A DNA stretch of 64,000 bases, from IMG/VR virus record IMGVR_UViG_3300028571_000012, one strand, 5' to 3'. This document shows positions 39,989 through 62,683 of the stretch, in pieces; position 1 is the stretch's first letter, and each line of letters begins with the position of its first letter. This stretch comes from an uncultured virus (IMG/VR IMGVR_UViG_3300028571_000012) (lineage: Duplodnaviria; Heunggongvirae; Uroviricota; Caudoviricetes). Under the pieces are notes generated by a model. The model was not told where the DNA came from. It did no database searches and saw only the letters and a program-made list of their open reading frames with translations. A program made the translations under genes and the position numbers.

Positions 39989-40313
39989 TGGTGGAGGTGT
40001 CGGGAGTTGAACCCGAGTCCACGATACAAACAATCTATAATCTACAACAATATCAAGCTTTTTTCGCCATGCTTGCCGGCTATGCACCTACGTTGTGCCC
40101 CAGAGTATAGTTTGGTGTACTCAACCTATTTTAGATTTGCCTAAAAAGCTATCCTCTGTCGTCGCCCACATCTTTTAGAGGAGTCAAAAAGTGGACGTAG
40201 CTTACGCAGCTAATGCAAGGTTATTTTCGCCTTTTGTTTTTCGCTTTTAAAGTCAAGCAGACTGTGTGTTGCAATAGGTGTGTTTCTTATCATGTCGAAA
40301 CCTTTTCACCCCC
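39989..40313 (-). ncRNA. ssrA: tmRNA, tag (A)GENNLALAA
   Basis: 5' GGGGGTGAAAAGGTTTCGAC, 3' GGGTTCAACTCCCGACACCTCCACCA with G3.U70; internal GGC GAA AAT AAC CTT GCA TTA GCT GCG TAA. Confidence 0.95.
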
Positions 40314-49206: not shown

Positions 49207-49293
49207 TGGTGCGTAAGACAGGACTCGAACCTGCAAGCCTCGTAGGCGCGGAATTTTAAGTTCCGAGTGTATCATCAATTCCACCACTTACGC
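49207..49293 (-). tRNA. tRNA-Leu(TAA), long variable arm
   Basis: CGGAA-CT TAA AA-TTCCG, GGTTCGAGTCC, CCA. Confidence 0.9.
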
Positions 49294-51852: not shown

Positions 51853-52911
51853 CTATTTGTTCATATCATAGTTTTTGTTAATTACCTTGAATGAATTGGC
51901 AACATATTGCTTTGTCAGCACAATGTCATCAACAGAATGAGACAAACAATATGCACCATGATTGATTACAACACCTTCAAAAGCTTTGCCATCAATTTTC
52001 TTAAGACCAGTGGAATATTTGTCAATCAACGTTTGAGTCAGCACAACATTTTCTTCCAAGATTGGAACGTGAGGCAGTGACAGTGCATTTGCAACAATTG
52101 GAAAATAAAATGCATCACCTTTGCGTGCATATTTTCTTTCTTTGATGCGATACACACTGAAAATTGCCAATCCCGGATCGTCTTTTGAATGTGGATTTTC
52201 AGCAAATGCCTGAATGCCTTGACCATAAGATTCACCACGAATTGCCAATGAAACGCCGTGCTCTTTGCAATACGCGGTGAGCTTTTCACGAATGCCGTAT
52301 TTTTGGACATGAGCAGTGTATTTGTTATGAGCGTCATCTTTAAATTCAAGAGTTCGGCCGCATACGCCAAAGGTGTCAGATTCAATGTTGTAGTATGCAG
52401 TCCAAGATTGACCGTCAATTTTCAACGTGACATCTACAATTTCACCAAATGGTAGTGCACTTACCATATTTTCCCATCGCTCTTCATCAGTTTTAGGAAT
52501 GCCAAAAGGAAGCAAACCTTTAGCAGAAAGATCCTGCGGCAGTGGTGGTTCATAGTGAGTGATGCCTAAGGCATCGGACACATCACGACCTTCATCTTCA
52601 GGTTGAACACAATCGCCGTATTTCAGCATAATAGAATCCACTTGCTCAGGTTGTACAACAATACCTTCGCTCCATTCCCCGCGAAGCTTTACAGCTTTGA
52701 TGCGGCCTGGAGAATATTTGCGGTAGCCTTCGGCCCATTCAGCATCTTCAGGAAGAACTGAGTCAGGTTGAATGTAGATTACAAGATCACCTTCACGATG
52801 AAGGCCTCGTTCGGTTACACATTGATAGCCTAAAATTTTGACAAGATCAAGACGATCTGCATTTGGGTGAGAGACTACCGATTTAATTTTTTCAACTGAT
52901 GCGTTTTTCAT
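51853..52911 (-). CDS. RNA ligase, DRB0094/Rnl5 family
   Basis: N-terminal OB (HPNADRL, KLRG..SEG), PKTDEER, KIDGQS.T, GE..G.GIQ.N, EGVV, SFKVIN. Confidence 0.88.
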   Translation of the reverse strand: MKNASVEKIKSVVSHPNADRLDLVKILGYQCVTERGLHREGDLVIYIQPDSVLPEDAEWAEGYRKYSPGRIKAVKLRGEWSEGIVVQPEQVDSIMLKYGDCVQPEDEGRDVSDALGITHYEPPLPQDLSAKGLLPFGIPKTDEERWENMVSALPFGEIVDVTLKIDGQSWTAYYNIESDTFGVCGRTLEFKDDAHNKYTAHVQKYGIREKLTAYCKEHGVSLAIRGESYGQGIQAFAENPHSKDDPGLAIFSVYRIKERKYARKGDAFYFPIVANALSLPHVPILEENVVLTQTLIDKYSTGLKKIDGKAFEGVVINHGAYCLSHSVDDIVLTKQYVANSFKVINKNYDMNK

Positions 52912-53465: not shown

Positions 53466-53542
53466 TGGTACACCGAGTGCGACTCGAACGCACAATCGCC
53501 AGAGCTTAAATCTGGAGGCTTTACCAATTAGCCCACCGGTGC
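53466..53542 (-). tRNA. tRNA-Leu(TAA), short variable loop
   Basis: CCAGA-TT TAA GC-TCTGG, TTCGAGT, CCA. Confidence 0.85.
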
Positions 53543-53794: not shown

Positions 53795-54523
53795 TTATCC
53801 TAATTGAATTTTTTTGCGTTTGCGTGTAGGACCGCCACTCTCTCTTTTAAAAGAAGCATTGTCCATACCATGAGACAGCACTTTATATTTGTTTTGCACT
53901 TCAACAGTTTGCAGTTCAGGTGCTTGCAGTGAATTAAAAATTTGTGTATAGACAACCACTGGATCCACCGGAAATTTCATGTCTTTCAAACATGGATTTA
54001 AAACCCAGCAGTTGTGATCATCAGAATGTTCGACACCGCGATAATTCAATCCAAACAGCGGAACATCAAGATGTGCATGCAATGCCATCAACTTTTCAGG
54101 TTTGCAATTTGCTTCAAAATTGTTACACACTGCGGTTGAATAGTTGGAAAGGTACTTGAATCTTTTTCCAAGTCTATCATTCTTATAAGCATAAGCTTCA
54201 GCGAATGATACAACAGCGTGTGTTTCATGAATGAGAAAATATGGATGGCCACCAACACAATAAAATGAAATTGGGGCGTTTGAAGTCCAACCATTTTGCA
54301 AACGATAAGTTTTTGAAGGATTAAGTTCACGTATCACAATGGCGCAAAGCTTAAGAAATTGTGATGGATCATTAACATCGTATCCGCCGATTGTGTATCT
54401 TCCAGGAAGCGTTTTATCAACCGTTGGAATCTTTGATGTTTTGCGGTTGTAGACAATTTTAGAATCTTGACCATACTTGGTGCAAAAATCATAATAGTCT
54501 GAAAAGTTTGAATTGATGTACAT
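53795..54523 (-). CDS. hypothetical protein inside RNA array
   Basis: 242-aa ORF; I.S.F.DYYD N-terminus, K...HG.D..SF C-terminus. Confidence 0.65.
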   Translation of the reverse strand: MYINSNFSDYYDFCTKYGQDSKIVYNRKTSKIPTVDKTLPGRYTIGGYDVNDPSQFLKLCAIVIRELNPSKTYRLQNGWTSNAPISFYCVGGHPYFLIHETHAVVSFAEAYAYKNDRLGKRFKYLSNYSTAVCNNFEANCKPEKLMALHAHLDVPLFGLNYRGVEHSDDHNCWVLNPCLKDMKFPVDPVVVYTQIFNSLQAPELQTVEVQNKYKVLSHGMDNASFKRESGGPTRKRKKIQLG

Positions 54524-54542
54524 AATATAAAGTTTGGTAAAA

Positions 54543-54617
54543 TGGTAGGGGCGACAGGAATTGAACCTGCTTACCTTCGATTATGAGTCGAACGCTAGAC
54601 CAATTAGCTACACCCCT
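54543..54617 (-). tRNA. tRNA with CAT anticodon (Ile2 or Met)
   Basis: TTCGA-CT CAT AA-TCGAA, CCA. Confidence 0.85.
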
Positions 54618-54729
54618 TTTTATTTTGCCAATATTGTTTTTTTATTTCGGCAAGTTTTTTCCTTACATGGTTATTCTACTATAAAACAAGGCAGTTGTAA
54701 ACAACTTTTTTCACTTTTTTTCGATAAAA

Positions 54730-54807
54730 TGGCACACCACGTGAGGATCGAACTCACTAAGACGAAAGATTTGGAGTCCTTCCGACTTGCCCACAGTCTG
54801 ATGGTGC
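54730..54807 (-). tRNA. tRNA-Trp(CCA)
   Basis: AAGGA-CT CCA AA-TCTTT, G73, CCA. Confidence 0.85.
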
Positions 54808-54815
54808 GTTGAAAA

Positions 54816-54890
54816 TGGTCCACACTGACGTGTCCGAATCGTCTTGTTTCGCTCTTCAGGCGAACGCTTTACCATATAAGCTAAGTGTGG
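54816..54890 (-). tRNA. tRNA-Phe(GAA)
   Basis: TTCGC-CT GAA GA-GCGAA, CCA. Confidence 0.85.
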
Positions 54891-54898
54891 ATATAAAA

Positions 54899-54987
54899 TG
54901 GAGGGAGCTAGAGGAATCGAACCCCTACCCGCTACAAACGCATAGCCCAGAGTTCAAATCTGGTTTGTCACCTTGACGCTAGCTCCC
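54899..54987 (-). tRNA. tRNA-Ser(TGA)
   Basis: CCAGA-TT TGA AC-TCTGG, long variable arm, CCA. Confidence 0.85.
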
Positions 54988-54994
54988 TAAAAAT

Positions 54995-55043
54995 TGGAAC
55001 AGGCGGCCGGGATCCCAACCCTTGGTTATCCTTGCGGACCTGC
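54995..55043 (-). ncRNA. 49-nt tRNA-like mini RNA ending in CCA
   Basis: GCAGGT/GCCTGT terminal stem plus T-CCA; no anticodon arm. Confidence 0.45.
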
Positions 55044-55054
55044 ATTGTATAAAA

Positions 55055-55086
55055 TGGTACCTTCGGTGTGATTCGAACACACCGTT
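55055..55086 (-). pseudogene. 3' half of split tRNA (T arm, acceptor strand, CCA)
   Basis: GTGTG-TTCGAAT-CACAC-CGAAGGT-A-CCA; pairs 7/7 with GCCTTCG at 55949-55943. Confidence 0.8.
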
Positions 55087-55091
55087 TTAAT

Positions 55092-55806
55092 TTAAATTAT
55101 GGAATAAAGATCTTCGACATCTTCCAATTTTATCTGTCCCGAAATAAATTTTGTGAAATTATTAATTCCATTTTCATTTCTGATTAGAAATATTTTTAAA
55201 TTTGGATTGTCTTTTTTTACTAATCTATATTTGTTTTTATCACGATCTGATAACCAACCTTTAACTTCGATATATGTATGATCGGAAACTTTAAAATCCG
55301 GTGTATAGCACCTATGCTCATCAAACTTAAGTCTTTCCCGAGATATGGTATACCCAAGTTCGATCAATTTTTTCACCTACTTGGGCTTCCCAAGTTCCTT
55401 GAACTTTAAGACCATTGGAAAGAGTATACCATTTTATATGTGGTGATCGTTCTAAATATTCAATTCGGGCCTTAGATAATTTTCGTTTTGATTCCACAGA
55501 ATGACCGTTTAATGATGCCCCAAATTTTTTTCCAACCAATGTTGGTCTTTCTAAACGAGGATCATCATGTTTCGTTATTCCTGCAGACCATCCCATCATT
55601 TTTCTAGTTTCAGATGAATAATTTTTTCTCATGTTTTTCCTGTTTTCTAAATATCCAGGATCTTTATTCTTTAAAAGAAGCGCATCGCTATTTCTTTTCC
55701 TAATAACAGGACAACTGTTGGATGATTTAGAACATATATTTTTACCAACTTTAATAGTCTTAAAAAGTGCTAAGTTGCCACAACCATGTTCACATAAAAT
55801 GTCCAT
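55092..55806 (-). CDS. PD-(D/E)xK homing-type endonuclease with NUMOD3-like region, split by a +1 frameshift
   Basis: HS.ESKRKLS, QGTWE in one frame; YTPDF..YIEVKGW in the next; join at A6 run 55368-55373; late promoter 55811-55818. Confidence 0.75.
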
Positions 55807-55834
55807 ATTTTATTTATAATAGAATCTAAATTAA

Positions 55835-55916
55835 TACCCCGACCGAGACTTGAACTCGGACGTTCTTCCGAACAACAGTTTCTAAGACTATCATGTCTGC
55901 ATTCCATCATCGGGGC
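55835..55916 (-). tRNA. tRNA-Leu(TAG), nested in split tRNA, no encoded CCA
   Basis: GCCCCGA/TCGGGGT acceptor, ATAGT-CT TAG AA-ACTGT, long variable arm. Confidence 0.85.
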
Positions 55917-55919
55917 TTT

Positions 55920-55949
55920 ACGGCGCCTCTACCGTTGGGCTACGAAGGC
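55920..55949 (-). pseudogene. 5' half of split tRNA (Leu-type D arm)
   Basis: GCCTTCG-TA-GCCCAACGGTAGAGGCG then truncation. Confidence 0.8.
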
Positions 55950-55951
55950 AA

Positions 55952-56026
55952 TGGCGCACACAGAAGGACTCGAACCTCCAACATTCTGTTTCGAAGACAG
56001 ACGCTCTTCCATTGAGCTATGCGTGC
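55952..56026 (-). tRNA. tRNA-Arg(TCG)
   Basis: TCTGT-CT TCG AA-ACAGA, CCA. Confidence 0.92.
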
Positions 56027-56036
56027 ATGGAAAATG

Positions 56037-56498
56037 TTATACTTTTGCGCCAACCGCAAGTGCGGCAGCATAAGCTTTAAATTCCGCAGAAGTTTTACCT
56101 TTAACAAAGACACCTTCTGAATCATAACTACGATATTCTGACCATGGCAATGTTCCATCGCTTGTGTTAATAAGACCCGATGGAAGTTTAATGAAAACCT
56201 TTGTATCGCCTCGCATGTATGCAACGCATCCGCTACCGCAATAAATTACATCGTCATTAAGTTGACCATTAATGGATGTGGCATTTTTATCGGTTGCTTT
56301 AAGACCACCGTCAATCATTGGCTTACCAATTCGATCTTCGTTTGAGGCCAAAAAGTTATCATAATTATGTGCTCCTTTTTTAGTCCAAGGAGTATTGCCT
56401 GCGGCAAAAGGAAATTCACCATTTGCTTCAACAATTTGTCCTCCCAAAATTGCTTTTGCGGCAATATACGTTTCATCGTTTGTTTTAATAATATTCAT
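56037..56498 (-). CDS. late protein, probable internal head protein
   Basis: TATAAATA 56508-56515; 22 nt around the start identical to that of 46830-48353; leader ending IVE. Confidence 0.6.
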   Translation of the reverse strand: MNIIKTNDETYIAAKAILGGQIVEANGEFPFAAGNTPWTKKGAHNYDNFLASNEDRIGKPMIDGGLKATDKNATSINGQLNDDVIYCGSGCVAYMRGDTKVFIKLPSGLINTSDGTLPWSEYRSYDSEGVFVKGKTSAEFKAYAAALAVGAKV

Positions 56499-56533
56499 AT
56501 GTATTGTTATTTATACATTTTTTGTTTTGAAAA

Positions 56534-56609
56534 TGGCGCACATGGCGAGTACTGATCTCGCGTCCGAAACATTGACAATGTTCCCATCTGCCATTGAAAG
56601 TACATGTGC
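56534..56609 (-). tRNA. tRNA-Asp(GTC)
   Basis: GAACA-TT GTC AA-TGTTT, G73, CCA. Confidence 0.85.
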
Positions 56610-56656: not shown

Positions 56657-56734
56657 TGGTGCAGGTGAGAGGATTCGAACCTCCATCGCTCCATTACGGT
56701 GCTACTGCTTAGAAGACAGTTCCGATACACCTGC
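56657..56734 (-). tRNA. D-arm-less tRNA-Arg(TCT)-like RNA
   Basis: GCAGGTG/CACCTGC, 7-nt linker instead of D arm, ACTGT-CT TCT AA-GCAGT, long variable region, canonical T arm, CCA. Confidence 0.7.
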
Positions 56735-57604
56735 TGAAAATTTTCTTTTAAAACATTTAAGTTCATAAAACTCAGGTAAATATCTTTTCATCCACTTTGA
56801 AACATTCTGTGGTTTTTTACCAAGCAGCTTTGAAACTTTATTCACCCACCCAAACTTCGAAAAATCTATACCCGAATTTAAAACCAAGTCTTTATATGGT
56901 TCCCATCTAATGGCTTCTCTTAATAGTATTTTTTCTCCGGGCGCCAATTTTTTTTCTTTAGCTGCTTTGAGTCTTAATATTTCAAAATATTTTTCATAAG
57001 ATGGTTGTTTTCCGATTTTTATTACAGAATCAATGAGTTCATGGTTGTACACAGAAGTATAATGTAATTCAATTAACGTCCATCCGGCTGAGGTGATTAA
57101 ATCATGTCGTTTTTGATAATATTCGGCGAGTGTCCCATCCTTATTATAATGTTGATTTCCATTTACCTCTATTCCAAATTTTAAATCGGGAAAACATATA
57201 TCTATTGAAAAATTTCTATCTTCCAGTGGGCTCCATTCTGAAACAAATGATATCCCCTTTGAGTTAAGATAGGTTTTAAGATATTCACAAGGAACGGATA
57301 TAAATTTAGAATTATTCTTCCAAGGGTGTTTATCCGGATTCTTCTTAAGAAAATCTTTTCTCTTTATTGAGAGATTATTTTTTCTTTCTGCGGAAAAAAC
57401 AATTGGAAATTTCTTACATTCGACACATCGTTTTCCTCTACTATTAAACAGTATTCCACAACGTAGACATGTTTTTTCTTTCCTCTGTTTTCTGTTTGGA
57501 TTTGATTTGCACCACCGTATGTGGTCTCCAATAGATCCTCTAGTTTCATTCGAAATTTCAATACTACAAAATGAACATTTCCTAATTCGAATCTCATTTT
57601 GCAT
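56702..57604 (-). CDS. homing-type endonuclease: Zn-ribbon N-terminus plus Vsr/DUF559-like nuclease
   Basis: CxxC pairs, S.P.E, FSIDI.FP...GIEVNGNQHY, R...I...GW; late promoter 57610-57617. Confidence 0.8.
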   Translation of the reverse strand: MQNEIRIRKCSFCSIEISNETRGSIGDHIRWCKSNPNRKQRKEKTCLRCGILFNSRGKRCVECKKFPIVFSAERKNNLSIKRKDFLKKNPDKHPWKNNSKFISVPCEYLKTYLNSKGISFVSEWSPLEDRNFSIDICFPDLKFGIEVNGNQHYNKDGTLAEYYQKRHDLITSAGWTLIELHYTSVYNHELIDSVIKIGKQPSYEKYFEILRLKAAKEKKLAPGEKILLREAIRWEPYKDLVLNSGIDFSKFGWVNKVSKLLGKKPQNVSKWMKRYLPEFYELKCFKRKFSAGVSELSSKQ

Positions 57605-61716: not shown

Positions 61717-62337
61717 TTAAATAATTGCAGGCACTTGCTCTCTTGGATTGCCAACAAAAACATCCCATTCAACACGATGGCGCACACTGTCAGACAATGC
61801 CGAAAATTCAACATCGGACAATATTTTTGGAACAACACTTGATCCAAATGCATTGGAATATGGAAATTTTGATCCTTTACGCAAATTGCATTTTTTACAT
61901 GACAGCACAATGTTTGAATCACAATTGACACCACCTTTGCTTCTTGGCACCACATGATCTCGTGTTGCAACCGAATAAGGAATTTCCTTCAAACAATATT
62001 GGCACTTACGATCATAAATGTTGTACAACTGACGCAACTTTATTGTTTTGCGCCTGCGCTTCATAAATCTTTTAGAATTGAAATAGCCAGGAATTACAAC
62101 AATTGTAGGAACTGCATACGCCACGTCTGCTGTACGCATACACGGATAATCATCTGGCAATCCTGTATCATTGCTTATCCATGAGCTCCAATCATGAATG
62201 TTGCCATGCGGATCATATGCTTTTACAGCACCTACCACAAGATTGCGCATTGCCGATCTTGCGTTAAAAAAACCAAGAGGTTCAAACCCACCAGAAAGGA
62301 CTAGTGTTGTTTTTGTTGTTGGCGTGATAGGTTTCAT
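61717..62337 (-). CDS. HNH endonuclease (McrA-like)
   Basis: CQYC, TRDHVVPRSKGG, N.V.SC..CN..KG. Confidence 0.9.
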   Translation of the reverse strand: MKPITPTTKTTLVLSGGFEPLGFFNARSAMRNLVVGAVKAYDPHGNIHDWSSWISNDTGLPDDYPCMRTADVAYAVPTIVVIPGYFNSKRFMKRRRKTIKLRQLYNIYDRKCQYCLKEIPYSVATRDHVVPRSKGGVNCDSNIVLSCKKCNLRKGSKFPYSNAFGSSVVPKILSDVEFSALSDSVRHRVEWDVFVGNPREQVPAII

Positions 62338-62683
62338 ATTATATTGTTGCATTCAAAACTGTAGAAAGACTTAATCGCATATTAAAGTCACATTCTGTAA
62401 TAGGTGTATCAAGTGTCACGCCATCATTTTGAGACCAACCGTTTGCATTTAAAATTTTCACTTTTAAATTTTTATGTGTCGTCCATTCATGTGCGGTCTT
62501 TTTAGGTCCAAAAATATTGTCCCAATTGTCACGTCCTTGTTTGGACAATGTTTTTGAGGCAATCGAATCTCCTGTAATATCATTTTTTGCTGACATAATC
62601 TTTATTGTGTGAATATTATACCTTACTTTAAGGACATTGTAAACAACTGTTTTCAAATCTTACGATATTTATAAATATATATT

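What the first reader, a model, noticed from the sequence alone, without database searches (positions are those of the whole stretch)
55055..55949. Split tRNA whose intact halves enclose a complete tRNA-Leu and an endonuclease gene
Seen: 5' half (GCCTTCG + D arm, 55949-55920) and 3' half (T arm + CGAAGGT-A-CCA, 55086-55055) still pair 7/7 across about 830 nt holding tRNA-Leu(TAG), a late promoter and a PD-(D/E)xK nuclease; no intron core is recognisable. Inference: an intron-less homing cassette that destroys its target tRNA while supplying a replacement, and/or an mRNA closed by a tRNA-like domain as in tmRNA.
Basis: partly seen in the sequence, partly recalled or inferred. Interest (0 to 1): 0.8.

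Follow-up and report, generated by a model that had tools for sequence, protein, structure and literature searches.

The report
Nuclease cassette splits phage leucine tRNA
A selfish DNA-cutting-enzyme gene that travels with its own spare leucine tRNA gene has landed inside a phage's leucine tRNA gene, leaving the two outer pieces as relics; it is a clean natural example of a little-described way for such elements to invade a useful gene without an intron.

Summary
On the minus strand, positions 1-26 (55949-55924) and 49-76 (55082-55055) of a short-variable-loop ("type I") tRNA-Leu gene lie 841 nt apart. Between them are a complete long-arm tRNA-Leu(UAG), a T4-type late-promoter motif and a nuclease gene. 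The nuclease has a Cys-rich/NUMOD3-like N-terminal part and a T7-endonuclease-I-like domain.

Two related IMG/VR contigs carry one uninterrupted 77-nt tRNA with anticodon UAG at the same place, between tRNA-Arg(UCG) and tRNA-Ser(UGA). What is held of them has neither the nuclease nor the inner tRNA.

Contigs from two other studies carry the same split layout, so it is not a misassembly. There the nuclease frame is intact; in the window an extra A breaks it.

No intron family was found, and no excision restores an anticodon arm. The tmRNA-like reading has no support.

Most likely this is a free-standing homing-endonuclease cassette, functionally like T4 SegB, that replaced the anticodon arm of its target and brought a spare isoacceptor. 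The halves are probably relics.

Earlier notes of this scan describe the same "break one, bring a spare" layout on other DNA with GIY-YIG, HNH and LAGLIDADG nucleases. This would add a fourth nuclease type.

The parts
55924..55949 (-). 5' relic of a type I (short variable loop) tRNA-Leu gene: acceptor strand 1-7, U8 A9, D arm, G26
   Evidence: Sequence. Exact match to the family D-arm motif. Local hit of family model R1 at 55925-55940, 10.4 bits. Aligns with positions 1-26 of the intact tRNA at L008:4777-4853.
55917..55923 (-). Left junction, CCGTAAA, between G26 of the relic and base 1 of the inner tRNA. It may hold a remnant of the old anticodon-stem strand or be foreign.
   Evidence: Sequence. 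No complementary 3' stem strand exists on the right side.
55835..55916 (-). Inner, complete long-variable-arm (type II) tRNA-Leu, anticodon UAG. It has no encoded CCA and, by my reading of the Rfam alignment, has C where G19 is expected.
   Evidence: ARAGORN. Rfam tRNA 44.7 bits against a gathering score of 29, with alignment. 21 of 24 ARAGORN tRNAs in the window encode CCA; this one does not.
55811..55818 (-). T4-type late-promoter motif TATAAATA, 4 nt before the ATG of the nuclease gene
   Evidence: 18 matches in the window against 6.06 expected; 0 of 100 shuffles reach 18. Several matches lie 4-9 nt before ORF starts.
55327..55806 (-). Nuclease gene, N-terminal frame (159 aa): Cys-rich N-terminus and a NUMOD3-like motif. 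The frame is lost at the A-run.
   Evidence: ORF list. Pfam NUMOD3 E 0.024, below cut-off. 97% identical to the intact 237-aa protein P0001.
55368..55373 (-). A6 run that carries the frameshift. Relatives have one A fewer here.
   Evidence: P0001 reads ...QVGEKLIELGYTISRER... across this point. Read laying reports '55368 left out 1' in contigs of X3, X4 and X8.
55092..55376 (-). Nuclease gene, C-terminal frame (94 aa listed): T7-endonuclease-I-like PD-(D/E)xK domain with YTPDF...IEVKG
   Evidence: Pfam Phage_endo_I E 2.7e-6, 27.5 bits against a cut-off of 29.1. PHROG 945 'endonuclease' E 2.6e-12. Profile of A2 against PDB 1m0d (endodeoxyribonuclease I) E 8.8e-7.
55055..55086 (-). 3' relic of the same tRNA-Leu gene: variable-loop remnant (55086-55083), T arm (55082-55066), acceptor strand (55065-55059), A73 and CCA (55058-55055)
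   Evidence: Sequence. R1 hit 55055-55121, 20.1 bits, E 0.007 over the whole window. Ends in ACCA followed by TTTTA, like the window's native tRNAs.
55952..56026 (-). Upstream flank: tRNA-Arg(UCG), conserved with the relatives that lack the cassette
54899..54987 (-). Downstream flank: tRNA-Ser(UGA), 1 difference in 89 nt from L008

Best explanation
The two pieces are the remains of one phage type I (short variable loop) tRNA-Leu(UAG) gene. About 17-22 bp of it, the anticodon arm and most of the variable loop, were replaced by an inserted cassette of about 830 bp.

The cassette holds three things: (i) a structurally different, long-arm tRNA-Leu with the same anticodon UAG, (ii) a late-promoter motif, and (iii) a free-standing homing-endonuclease gene. 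That gene has a Cys-rich N-terminus, a NUMOD3-like DNA-binding motif and a T7-endonuclease-I-like PD-(D/E)xK nuclease domain.

Inferred mechanism. In a mixed infection the enzyme cuts the uninterrupted tRNA-Leu allele of a relative, in or near the tRNA gene. Repair from the cassette-bearing genome copies the nuclease gene, the spare tRNA and the flanks into the cut genome. The carrier is immune because the segment is gone. CUN decoding is kept by the spare tRNA instead of by splicing. After spread, the nuclease gene decays.

Shown: the anatomy; presence/absence polymorphism at one locus; an intact nuclease frame in some lineages and a broken one here; absence of an intron signature.

Inferred: cleavage specificity, homing, function of the spare tRNA, and that the halves are inert.
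For: 1. Synteny. L008 and L063 (two IMG/VR contigs; neighbouring protein of L008 76% identical) have Arg(UCG) - one 77-nt tRNA with anticodon UAG - spacer - Ser(UGA) - Phe - Trp - Met. The window has Arg(UCG) - 5' piece - Leu(UAG) - nuclease - 3' piece - spacer - Ser(UGA) - Phe - Trp - Met.

2. The held parts of those two records (31% and 20% complete) contain neither the nuclease nor the inner tRNA.

3. The same split layout is present in contigs of two further studies (X3, X4) at about 96-97% identity. There, and in X8, the A-run is one A shorter, which matches the intact 237-aa P0001.

4. No Rfam intron family at E<=10 in 54500-56500. ARAGORN with introns allowed up to 1500 nt calls no intron-bearing tRNA. 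None of 45 simple excisions that would leave type I geometry gives more than 3 of 5 anticodon-stem pairs.

5. The eight closest relatives of the nuclease outside the twin (L072-L079) all lie inside phage tRNA clusters on the tRNA strand. None has an Rfam intron family at E<=0.01. L072 repeats the module: type I tRNA-Leu, then type II tRNA-Leu(UAG), then TATAAATA, then nuclease. In L073 and L075 the ORF's stop overlaps the start of a type I tRNA-Leu.

6. The inner tRNA looks foreign. It has no encoded CCA, whereas 21 of 24 tRNAs in the window and the 3' relic do. Cassette GC is 32.3% against 37.9% for the window.

7. Precedent. T4 SegB recognises a conserved tRNA T-arm element, cuts inside tRNA genes of relatives and drives inheritance of itself and neighbouring tRNA genes (PMC2330249, abstract and passages).
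Against: No cleavage or homing data exist, and the target site is unknown.

The link to tRNA-Leu is only suggestive. A Leu tRNA is the nearest neighbour in 5 of 8 relatives. From the tRNA make-up of those same loci I estimate about 3 of 8 by chance (counts; my arithmetic).

The inner tRNA-Leu is no closer (51-63% identity) to the Leu tRNAs beside related nucleases than to other long-arm Leu tRNAs. So there is no sign that one tRNA-plus-nuclease pair has travelled among these lineages.

The spare tRNA may be impaired. It has C where G19 is expected, and the G19-C56 pair matters for E. coli LeuRS (review PMC9976931, passages).

No uninterrupted allele identical to the halves was found. The 25-mer, 28-mer and 19-mer scans of IMG/VR found only the twin, and the 25-mer scan of metagenome contigs found nothing. 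The halves differ from L008's tRNA at 9 of 54 positions plus one indel, so the first insertion may have happened in another lineage.

The twin contig may come from the same sample as the window, so it is not independent.
Confidence: 0.75

Rival explanations
1. The halves are still used. Paired across the insert, or in trans after processing, they would rebuild the acceptor, D and T arms with A73-CCA. These are the parts that suffice for charging by bacterial LeuRS. The result would be a chargeable or RNase-P-recognised tRNA-like cap on the nuclease RNA.
For: [quoted passage not shown] The relics keep A73, CCA, the Leu-type D loop and an intact T arm. In the 895-nt fold the two ends pair in both the minimum-energy and centroid structures, z = -3.97. 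The layout has persisted through about 3-4% divergence.
Against: In X3 the discriminator is G, while A is invariant in 47 of 47 family tRNAs, and G73 is an antideterminant for LeuRS. Transcripts from the late promoter would lack the 5' piece. RNase P cutting at the inner tRNA would separate the pieces, leaving only 7 bp to hold them. Listed changes in the relics (2 substitutions and one 2-nt indel in about 60 nt in X3) are not fewer than in the nuclease gene (8 listed in about 715 nt). The numbers are small and the table was truncated. There is no tmRNA signature.
Confidence: 0.07
2. The pieces come from two different type I tRNA-Leu genes that once flanked the nuclease, as in L075, each later truncated by deletion. 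On this reading there was no single insertion into one gene.
For: L075 has type I tRNA-Leu genes on both sides of its nuclease. Family acceptor strands cross-pair 7/7 in 13% of cross pairs, and 15 of 47 fit this 5' piece. Debris-like tRNA fragments occur in these clusters, for example at L076:2900-3340.
Against: The relatives without the cassette have exactly one such tRNA at this place, and the two pieces together make up positions 1-26 and 44/49-76 with no overlap or duplication. Two independent deletions ending at complementary positions is less parsimonious than one insertion.
Confidence: 0.08
3. The insert is a self-splicing or otherwise processed intron whose core is too divergent to detect, and the outer tRNA is still made.
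For: tRNA anticodon loops, notably of tRNA-Leu, are classic group I intron sites in bacteria (own knowledge; the SegB paper's introduction also says tRNA genes are favoured intron sites). An earlier scan note, unchecked, says related HNH enzymes ride such introns.
Against: No intron family at E<=10. No anticodon stem-loop can be rebuilt from the flanks: at most 3 of 5 stem pairs in 45 joins. The insert holds a whole tRNA and a promoter. None of the 8 related nuclease loci shows an intron family at E<=0.01.
Confidence: 0.03
4. Assembly artefact: a chimeric join of reads from different tRNA genes.
For: tRNA clusters are repeat-like, and the window comes from a metagenome.
Against: The same arrangement is found in an IMG/VR contig and in single contigs of 3189 nt (X3) and 3381 nt (X4) from two other studies.
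Confidence: 0.01

Closest known systems
Phage T4 SegB, a free-standing GIY-YIG homing endonuclease in the tRNA gene cluster (PMC2330249; abstract and passages read)
   Same: A nuclease gene that stands free among phage tRNA genes, is absent from close relatives, recognises tRNA-gene sequence, and carries neighbouring tRNA genes along when it homes. No intron is involved.
   Different: SegB lies between tRNA genes and is GIY-YIG. Here the cassette sits inside a tRNA gene and has removed its anticodon arm. The nuclease domain is T7-endonuclease-I-like, and the co-carried tRNA is an isoacceptor of the destroyed one. Activity is untested here.
Type I tRNA-Leu: Streptomyces coelicolor tRNA-Leu(CAA) (PMC6614811, abstract read), and tRNA-Leu annotations on the matching phage records
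   Same: The destroyed gene belongs to this short-variable-loop Leu type: a Leu-type D loop and A73, and the orthologue has anticodon UAG with a 5-nt variable loop.
   Different: In the window only the outer parts remain. Whether the host's LeuRS charges this type is unknown.
Genes fractured by free-standing endonuclease genes (Dassa et al. 2009, PMC2677866, search listing only; Aeromonas phage Aeh1 nrdA split by mobE, recalled, not looked up)
   Same: An endonuclease gene without an intron lands inside a useful gene and splits it.
   Different: In those cases the two protein pieces still work together, by split inteins or by assembly. Here function is most likely kept by a second, complete gene brought by the cassette.
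HEG-bearing group I introns in bacterial tRNA anticodon loops, for example I-Ssp6803I, a PD-(D/E)xK enzyme in a tRNA-fMet intron (recalled, not looked up)
   Same: A PD-(D/E)xK-type homing nuclease associated with the middle of a tRNA gene.
   Different: No ribozyme core is detectable, and the flanks cannot rebuild an anticodon arm.
Earlier notes of this scan on other DNA: tRNA-Leu genes split by GIY-YIG, HNH or LAGLIDADG cassettes that carry a spare tRNA-Leu
   Same: The same 'break one, bring a spare' layout, again on tRNA-Leu.
   Different: A different nuclease family here. Those notes are AI notes that I did not check.

Membership tests
Free-standing homing endonuclease gene (intronless homing, SegB-like) | Nuclease ORF with DNA-binding modules that is not embedded in an intron or intein | tested here: met
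   Nuclease domain. NUMOD3-like motif, weak. No intron family. Own promoter motif.
Free-standing homing endonuclease gene (intronless homing, SegB-like) | Presence/absence polymorphism at the same locus among close relatives | tested here: met
   Present in the window, the twin, X3 and X4. Absent at the syntenic place in L008 and L063.
Free-standing homing endonuclease gene (intronless homing, SegB-like) | Site-specific cleavage of the allele that lacks the gene | not testable with these tools
   Needs an enzyme assay
Free-standing homing endonuclease gene (intronless homing, SegB-like) | Preferential inheritance with co-conversion of flanks in mixed infection | not testable with these tools
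   Only a hint: the relics differ from L008 at 9 of 54 positions, while flanking tRNA-Ser differs at 1 of 89 and tRNA-Arg at 5 of 75 (counted by eye).
T7 endonuclease I-like PD-(D/E)xK nucleases (Pfam PF05367) | Score at or above Pfam's gathering threshold | tested here: not met
   27.5 bits for the window's C-terminal frame and 25.9 bits for P0001, against a cut-off of 29.1.
T7 endonuclease I-like PD-(D/E)xK nucleases (Pfam PF05367) | Conserved PD...(D/E)xK catalytic motif and profile similarity to solved endonuclease I | tested here: met
   Y-T-P-D-F and I-E-V-K-G are invariant in alignment A2. PDB 1m0d E 8.8e-7, with ytPDF and fiEvKG aligned.
Type I (short variable loop) tRNA-Leu | Leu-type D arm, and A73 (invariant in all 47 aligned family tRNAs) | tested here: met
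   The 5' piece matches the family motif. A73 is present, and is invariant in 47 of 47 family members.
Type I (short variable loop) tRNA-Leu | Leu anticodon and a 4-5-nt variable loop | tested here: inconclusive
   The arm is missing in the window. The syntenic orthologue has UAG and a 5-nt loop.
Group I intron in a tRNA anticodon loop | Recognisable ribozyme core | tested here: not met
   No intron family at E<=10
Group I intron in a tRNA anticodon loop | Exons that rebuild the anticodon stem-loop when joined | tested here: not met
   At most 3 of 5 stem pairs in 45 joins. ARAGORN intron mode finds none.
tmRNA-like tRNA domain closing an mRNA | G3.U70 alanine identity and a match to the tmRNA model | tested here: not met
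   Pairs 1-3 are G.U, C-G, C-G. Rfam's only tmRNA hit in the stretch searched is 7.7 bits at 54741-54757, outside the element.
Split tRNA genes of the Nanoarchaeum type (features recalled) | Halves that together include the anticodon arm and carry extra complementary leaders for assembly in trans | tested here: not met
   No anticodon arm is present. I saw no complementary stretch beyond the 7-bp acceptor stem except CCGT/ACGG, which overlaps the T stem.

The most novel reading that the evidence does not exclude
The cut fell so that the relics keep exactly what bacterial LeuRS needs (acceptor stem, A73-CCA, Leu-type D loop, T arm) and lose exactly what it does not need (anticodon and variable arms). 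On the boldest reading the two pieces still pair, in cis on the cluster transcript or in trans, into a leucine-chargeable or RNase-P-recognised tRNA-like cap on the nuclease RNA. The element would then be an mRNA framed by a working tRNA mimic.

A milder version is more likely. It holds that tRNA-Leu is the recurrent victim of 'break one, bring a spare' cassettes of unrelated nuclease families. LeuRS ignores those two arms, so a spare of the other structural type can replace the target while being immune to the nuclease.
Probability: 0.06. Interest if true: 0.8.

Novelty: new variant of a known kind. Interest (0 to 1): 0.5.

Why it matters
Homing endonucleases are thought to enter conserved, useful genes only when an intron or intein repairs the damage, and otherwise to stay between genes. 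This case shows a third route: destroy the target and bring a working substitute.

The window's lineage offers a natural test bed. Four states all exist in lake and estuary metagenomes:
- alleles with the uninterrupted tRNA,
- alleles with the cassette,
- cassettes with an intact nuclease frame,
- a cassette with a broken frame.

So the proposed target, the enzyme and the immune allele can each be synthesised and tested directly.

If the earlier scan notes hold (unchecked), the same layout has arisen on tRNA-Leu with at least four unrelated nuclease types. That would call for an explanation specific to tRNA-Leu. It would also bear on how phage tRNA sets are reshuffled. SegB-driven change of tRNA loci has recently been linked to escape from a defence that cuts tRNA (PMC13096335, start of abstract as listed only).

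Tried and rejected
- Named phage records: no near match to 54700-56300. Distant matches were to single tRNAs only.
- The window's own assembly is not held. The nearest record, G001, does not contain this region.
- Exact scans for the halves (25-mer, 28-mer and 19-mer in IMG/VR; 25-mer in metagenome contigs) found only the twin or nothing.
- P0001 in metagenome contigs: 358 pattern matches, none confirmed.
- A 25-mer of the inner tRNA in one genome per prokaryote species: no match, so no host or donor clue.
- The inner tRNA against named phages gave only 73-75% matches to Streptomyces phage tRNA-Leu, which is generic similarity.
- Intron search: Rfam and ARAGORN intron mode were both negative.
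- ARAGORN on 10,201 scripted joins of the flanks called 361 'tRNAs' starting at the outer 5' end. In the ten commonest labels and the first 15 calls printed, the anticodons were scattered and not Leu. I take this as ARAGORN's tolerance, not as evidence for splicing. That script also had the T-stem start off by 2 nt; this was corrected.
- Family model R1 also scores ordinary tRNAs highly, so it does not separate Leu-type from other tRNAs. It gave only modest scores for the pieces.
- CCGT (55923-55920) and ACGG (55085-55082) are complementary, but ACGG overlaps the first base of the T stem and would leave no variable loop. I treated this as chance.
- The 67-nt spacer 54988-55054 is not significantly structured (z = -0.83).
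- The two other ORFs inside the tRNA cluster (53795-54523 and 56702-57604) are unrelated to this nuclease.
- RNA run X9 has contigs on parts of the nuclease gene only (55139-55320 and 55471-55629). This may be DNA carry-over, and I draw nothing from it.
- Paper searches: 'split tRNA' + 'homing endonuclease' + 'phage' gave 0 papers. Three other searches listed no paper, by title or start of abstract, that describes this layout. Subscription journals are not covered.
Full report
**What is there.** The window comes from a tailed phage with a T4-like baseplate wedge protein (PHROG 219, E 2.2e-131). T4-type late-promoter motifs are enriched: TATAAATA occurs 18 times against 6.06 expected, and 0 of 100 shuffles reach 18. 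A minus-strand cluster holds 24 ARAGORN tRNAs plus a tmRNA.

Read on the minus strand, the element runs in this order:
- tRNA-Arg(UCG) ends at 55952, followed by a 2-nt spacer.
- GCCTTCG-TA-GCCC-AACGGTAG-AGGC-G (55949-55924): positions 1-26 of a tRNA.
- CCGTAAA (55923-55917).
- A complete 82-nt long-arm tRNA-Leu(UAG) (55916-55835; Rfam 44.7 bits).
- TATAAATA (55818-55811).
- An ORF from 55806.
- After the ORF's stop and 9 nt: GTGTG-TTCGAAT-CACAC-CGAAGGT-A-CCA (55082-55055), i.e. T arm, 3' acceptor strand, A73 and CCA.

The acceptor strands pair 7 of 7, including G1.U72.

**Which tRNA was split.** The D-arm motif of the 5' piece defines a widespread phage family.
- The pattern TCGTAGCCCAAN{1,2}GGNAGAGGCG gave 64 matches in 60 IMG/VR loci.
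- 63 of these lie in ARAGORN-called tRNAs of 74-83 nt, and 61 have Leu anticodons (27 UAG, 11 CAA, 11 UAA, 5 AAG, 4 GAG, 3 CAG). The other two were called Tyr and His.
- The single uncalled match is the window's twin contig.
- These are short-variable-loop ('type I') tRNA-Leu. In an alignment of 47 distinct members A73 is invariant.
- The matching records among named phages annotate them as tRNA-Leu.
- The type is known from Streptomyces coelicolor, where one LeuRS charges both types (PMC6614811, abstract).

**The uninterrupted orthologue.** Three IMG/VR contigs hold this part of the cluster: the twin, which is split, and two relatives, L008/L152 and L063/L153. In both relatives one contiguous 77-nt tRNA with anticodon UAG (L008:4777-4853) lies between tRNA-Arg(UCG) and a spacer followed by tRNA-Ser(UGA), Phe, Trp and Met. 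This is the window's order.

The allele is not identical.
- The pieces differ from L008 at 9 of 54 positions plus one indel. Compensatory changes occur at pairs 4-69, 51-63 and 52-62.
- The flanking tRNA-Ser differs at 1 of 89 positions and tRNA-Arg at 5 of 75 (counted by eye).
- This fits either older divergence of a working tRNA or arrival of the whole segment from another lineage by co-conversion.
- The held parts of the two relatives (31% and 20% complete) contain neither the nuclease nor the inner tRNA.

**Not an artefact, and older than one genome.** Contigs of two other studies cover 54727-56028 (X3, lake water, 3189 nt) and 54895-56028 (X4, estuary, 3381 nt) without interruption, at roughly 96-97% identity. 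The twin IMG/VR contig may come from the same sample as the window, so I do not count it as independent.

**The nuclease.**
- The ORF is broken. A 159-aa frame (55806-55327) and a 94-aa frame (55376-55092) overlap at an A6 run (55373-55368).
- A database protein, P0001 (237 aa, 97% identical), reads straight through this point.
- The contigs of X3, X4 and X8 have one A fewer there. So the gene is intact in other lineages and frameshifted in the window and its twin.
- The C-terminal part is T7-endonuclease-I-like: Pfam PF05367 27.5 bits, just under the cut-off of 29.1; PHROG 945 E 2.6e-12; a profile of three homologues against PDB 1m0d E 8.8e-7 with PD and ExK aligned.
- The N-terminal part has a Cys-rich start. 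P0004 shares that start but carries Cys/His motifs that I read, by eye, as an HNH-type domain instead of the endonuclease-I-like one. It also has a weak NUMOD3 match.

**Where its relatives live.** Of 80 loci kept from a profile scan of IMG/VR, 12 hold any tRNA. The nine best by similarity (the twin plus L072-L079) all lie inside tRNA clusters on the tRNA strand. None of the eight non-twin loci has an Rfam intron family at E<=0.01.
- L072 repeats the module: type I tRNA-Leu, type II tRNA-Leu(UAG), TATAAATA, nuclease.
- In L073 the gene is itself frameshifted, and its stop overlaps the start of a type I tRNA-Leu(UAG).
- In L075 type I tRNA-Leu genes lie on both sides, and the stop overlaps the second.
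- A Leu tRNA is the nearest neighbour in 5 of 8 loci. From the tRNA content of those same loci I estimate about 3 of 8 by chance, so this is suggestive only.
- The inner tRNA-Leu is not specially similar to the Leu tRNAs next to related nucleases (51-63% identity).

**Intron and tmRNA readings.**
- No intron family appears at E<=10 in 54500-56500.
- ARAGORN with introns allowed up to 1500 nt finds no intron-bearing tRNA.
- The flanks cannot rebuild an anticodon arm: at most 3 of 5 stem pairs in the 45 joins that would leave type I geometry.
- There is no G3.U70 and no tmRNA-model match over the element.
- A normal tmRNA lies at 39989-40313.

**Is the spare tRNA a real replacement?**
- It carries the same anticodon as the lost gene, and it is the only CUN reader that ARAGORN calls in the window.
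- CUN codons make up 46% of 1006 Leu codons in 38 long ORFs.
- It looks imported. It has no encoded CCA, whereas 21 of 24 tRNAs and the 3' relic have it, and the cassette is AT-richer than the window (32.3% against 37.9% GC).
- It has C where G19 is expected (alignment). The G19-C56 contact matters for E. coli LeuRS (PMC9976931, passages), so its efficiency is an open question.

**Are the relics used?**
- In favour: bacterial LeuRS needs neither the anticodon arm nor the long variable arm. Minimal tRNA-Leu without both is still charged if A73 and the D/T-loop contacts remain. Those are exactly the parts kept here. The ends of the 895-nt RNA pair in the predicted fold.
- Against: X3 has G at the discriminator, where A is invariant in the family. 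The relics do not show fewer listed changes than their surroundings, although the counts are small and the table was truncated. Late-promoter transcripts would lack the 5' piece.
- I put this at about 6-7%.

**Verdict.** This is a free-standing homing-endonuclease cassette. It works like T4 SegB, which recognises a tRNA T-arm element and carries tRNA genes along (PMC2330249). Three things differ:
- It sits inside its presumed target gene.
- It has a different nuclease fold.
- It carries an isoacceptor of the other structural type as a substitute.

Cleavage, homing and tRNA function are inferred. I found no paper describing this layout. Earlier notes of this scan describe the same layout on other DNA with GIY-YIG, HNH and LAGLIDADG genes (unchecked). 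If they hold, tRNA-Leu is a recurrent, convergent target.

Noticed in passing
window 56537-56609 and 56660-56734 (-): Two tRNAs that ARAGORN missed. One has anticodon GUC (Asp; Rfam 38.3 bits). The other is odd: almost no D arm, a long variable arm and anticodon UCU (41.4 bits). The start of the second overlaps the 3' end of ORF 56702-57604, which has weak HNH-type PHROG matches.
   Followed up: partly
window 55835-55916 (-): The inner tRNA-Leu(UAG) has C where the near-universal G19 is expected, and it lacks an encoded CCA. It may be a poor LeuRS substrate.
   Followed up: partly
window 51853-52911 (-): An RNA ligase gene (Pfam RNA_ligase E 6e-15 plus an OB-fold domain) lies beside the tRNA cluster. 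It is possibly a tRNA-repair function.
   Followed up: no
window 39989-40313 (-): Phage-borne tmRNA with tag peptide GENNLALAA. The relative L008 has a tmRNA with a different tag inside its tRNA cluster.
   Followed up: no
window 54988-55054 (-); L008:4854-4951: The spacer after the split tRNA ends in CCA in both genomes but differs in length (67 nt against about 98 nt) and in sequence. It has no significant fold (z = -0.83). It is reminiscent of the small stable RNAs of the T4 tRNA region (recalled).
   Followed up: partly
window 56037-56498 (-): This 153-aa gene of unknown function is replaced by other sequence in the X3 and X4 relatives (joints 56028 to 56436 and 56028 to 56296 with other letters between). 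This marks a second variable spot next to the tRNA-Arg gene.
   Followed up: no
L073:2453-3189: The closest full-length relative of the nuclease gene in IMG/VR (62% identity) is also split into two overlapping frames. Decay of these genes is recurrent.
   Followed up: partly
L076:2900-3340 and L072:2937-3050: tRNA-like debris and unusually built tRNA-like sequences lie downstream of related nuclease genes. One example is a mini-helix of acceptor stem plus T arm only. Such wreckage seems common in these clusters.
   Followed up: no
window 49207-49293 and 53466-53542 (-): The phage keeps both a long-arm and a short-arm tRNA-Leu(UAA). So both structural types coexist for UUR as well.
   Followed up: no
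window about 54658-54713 (-): A stretch of about 56 nt between tRNA-Met and tRNA-Trp matches four places in the nearest held virus record G001 at 77-86% identity. It is a repeated intergenic element of unknown role.
   Followed up: no
window 61717-62352 (-): An HNH endonuclease gene (Pfam HNH_5 E 5e-13) lies just beyond the upstream (high-coordinate) end of the tRNA cluster. It is another likely mobile nuclease.
   Followed up: no
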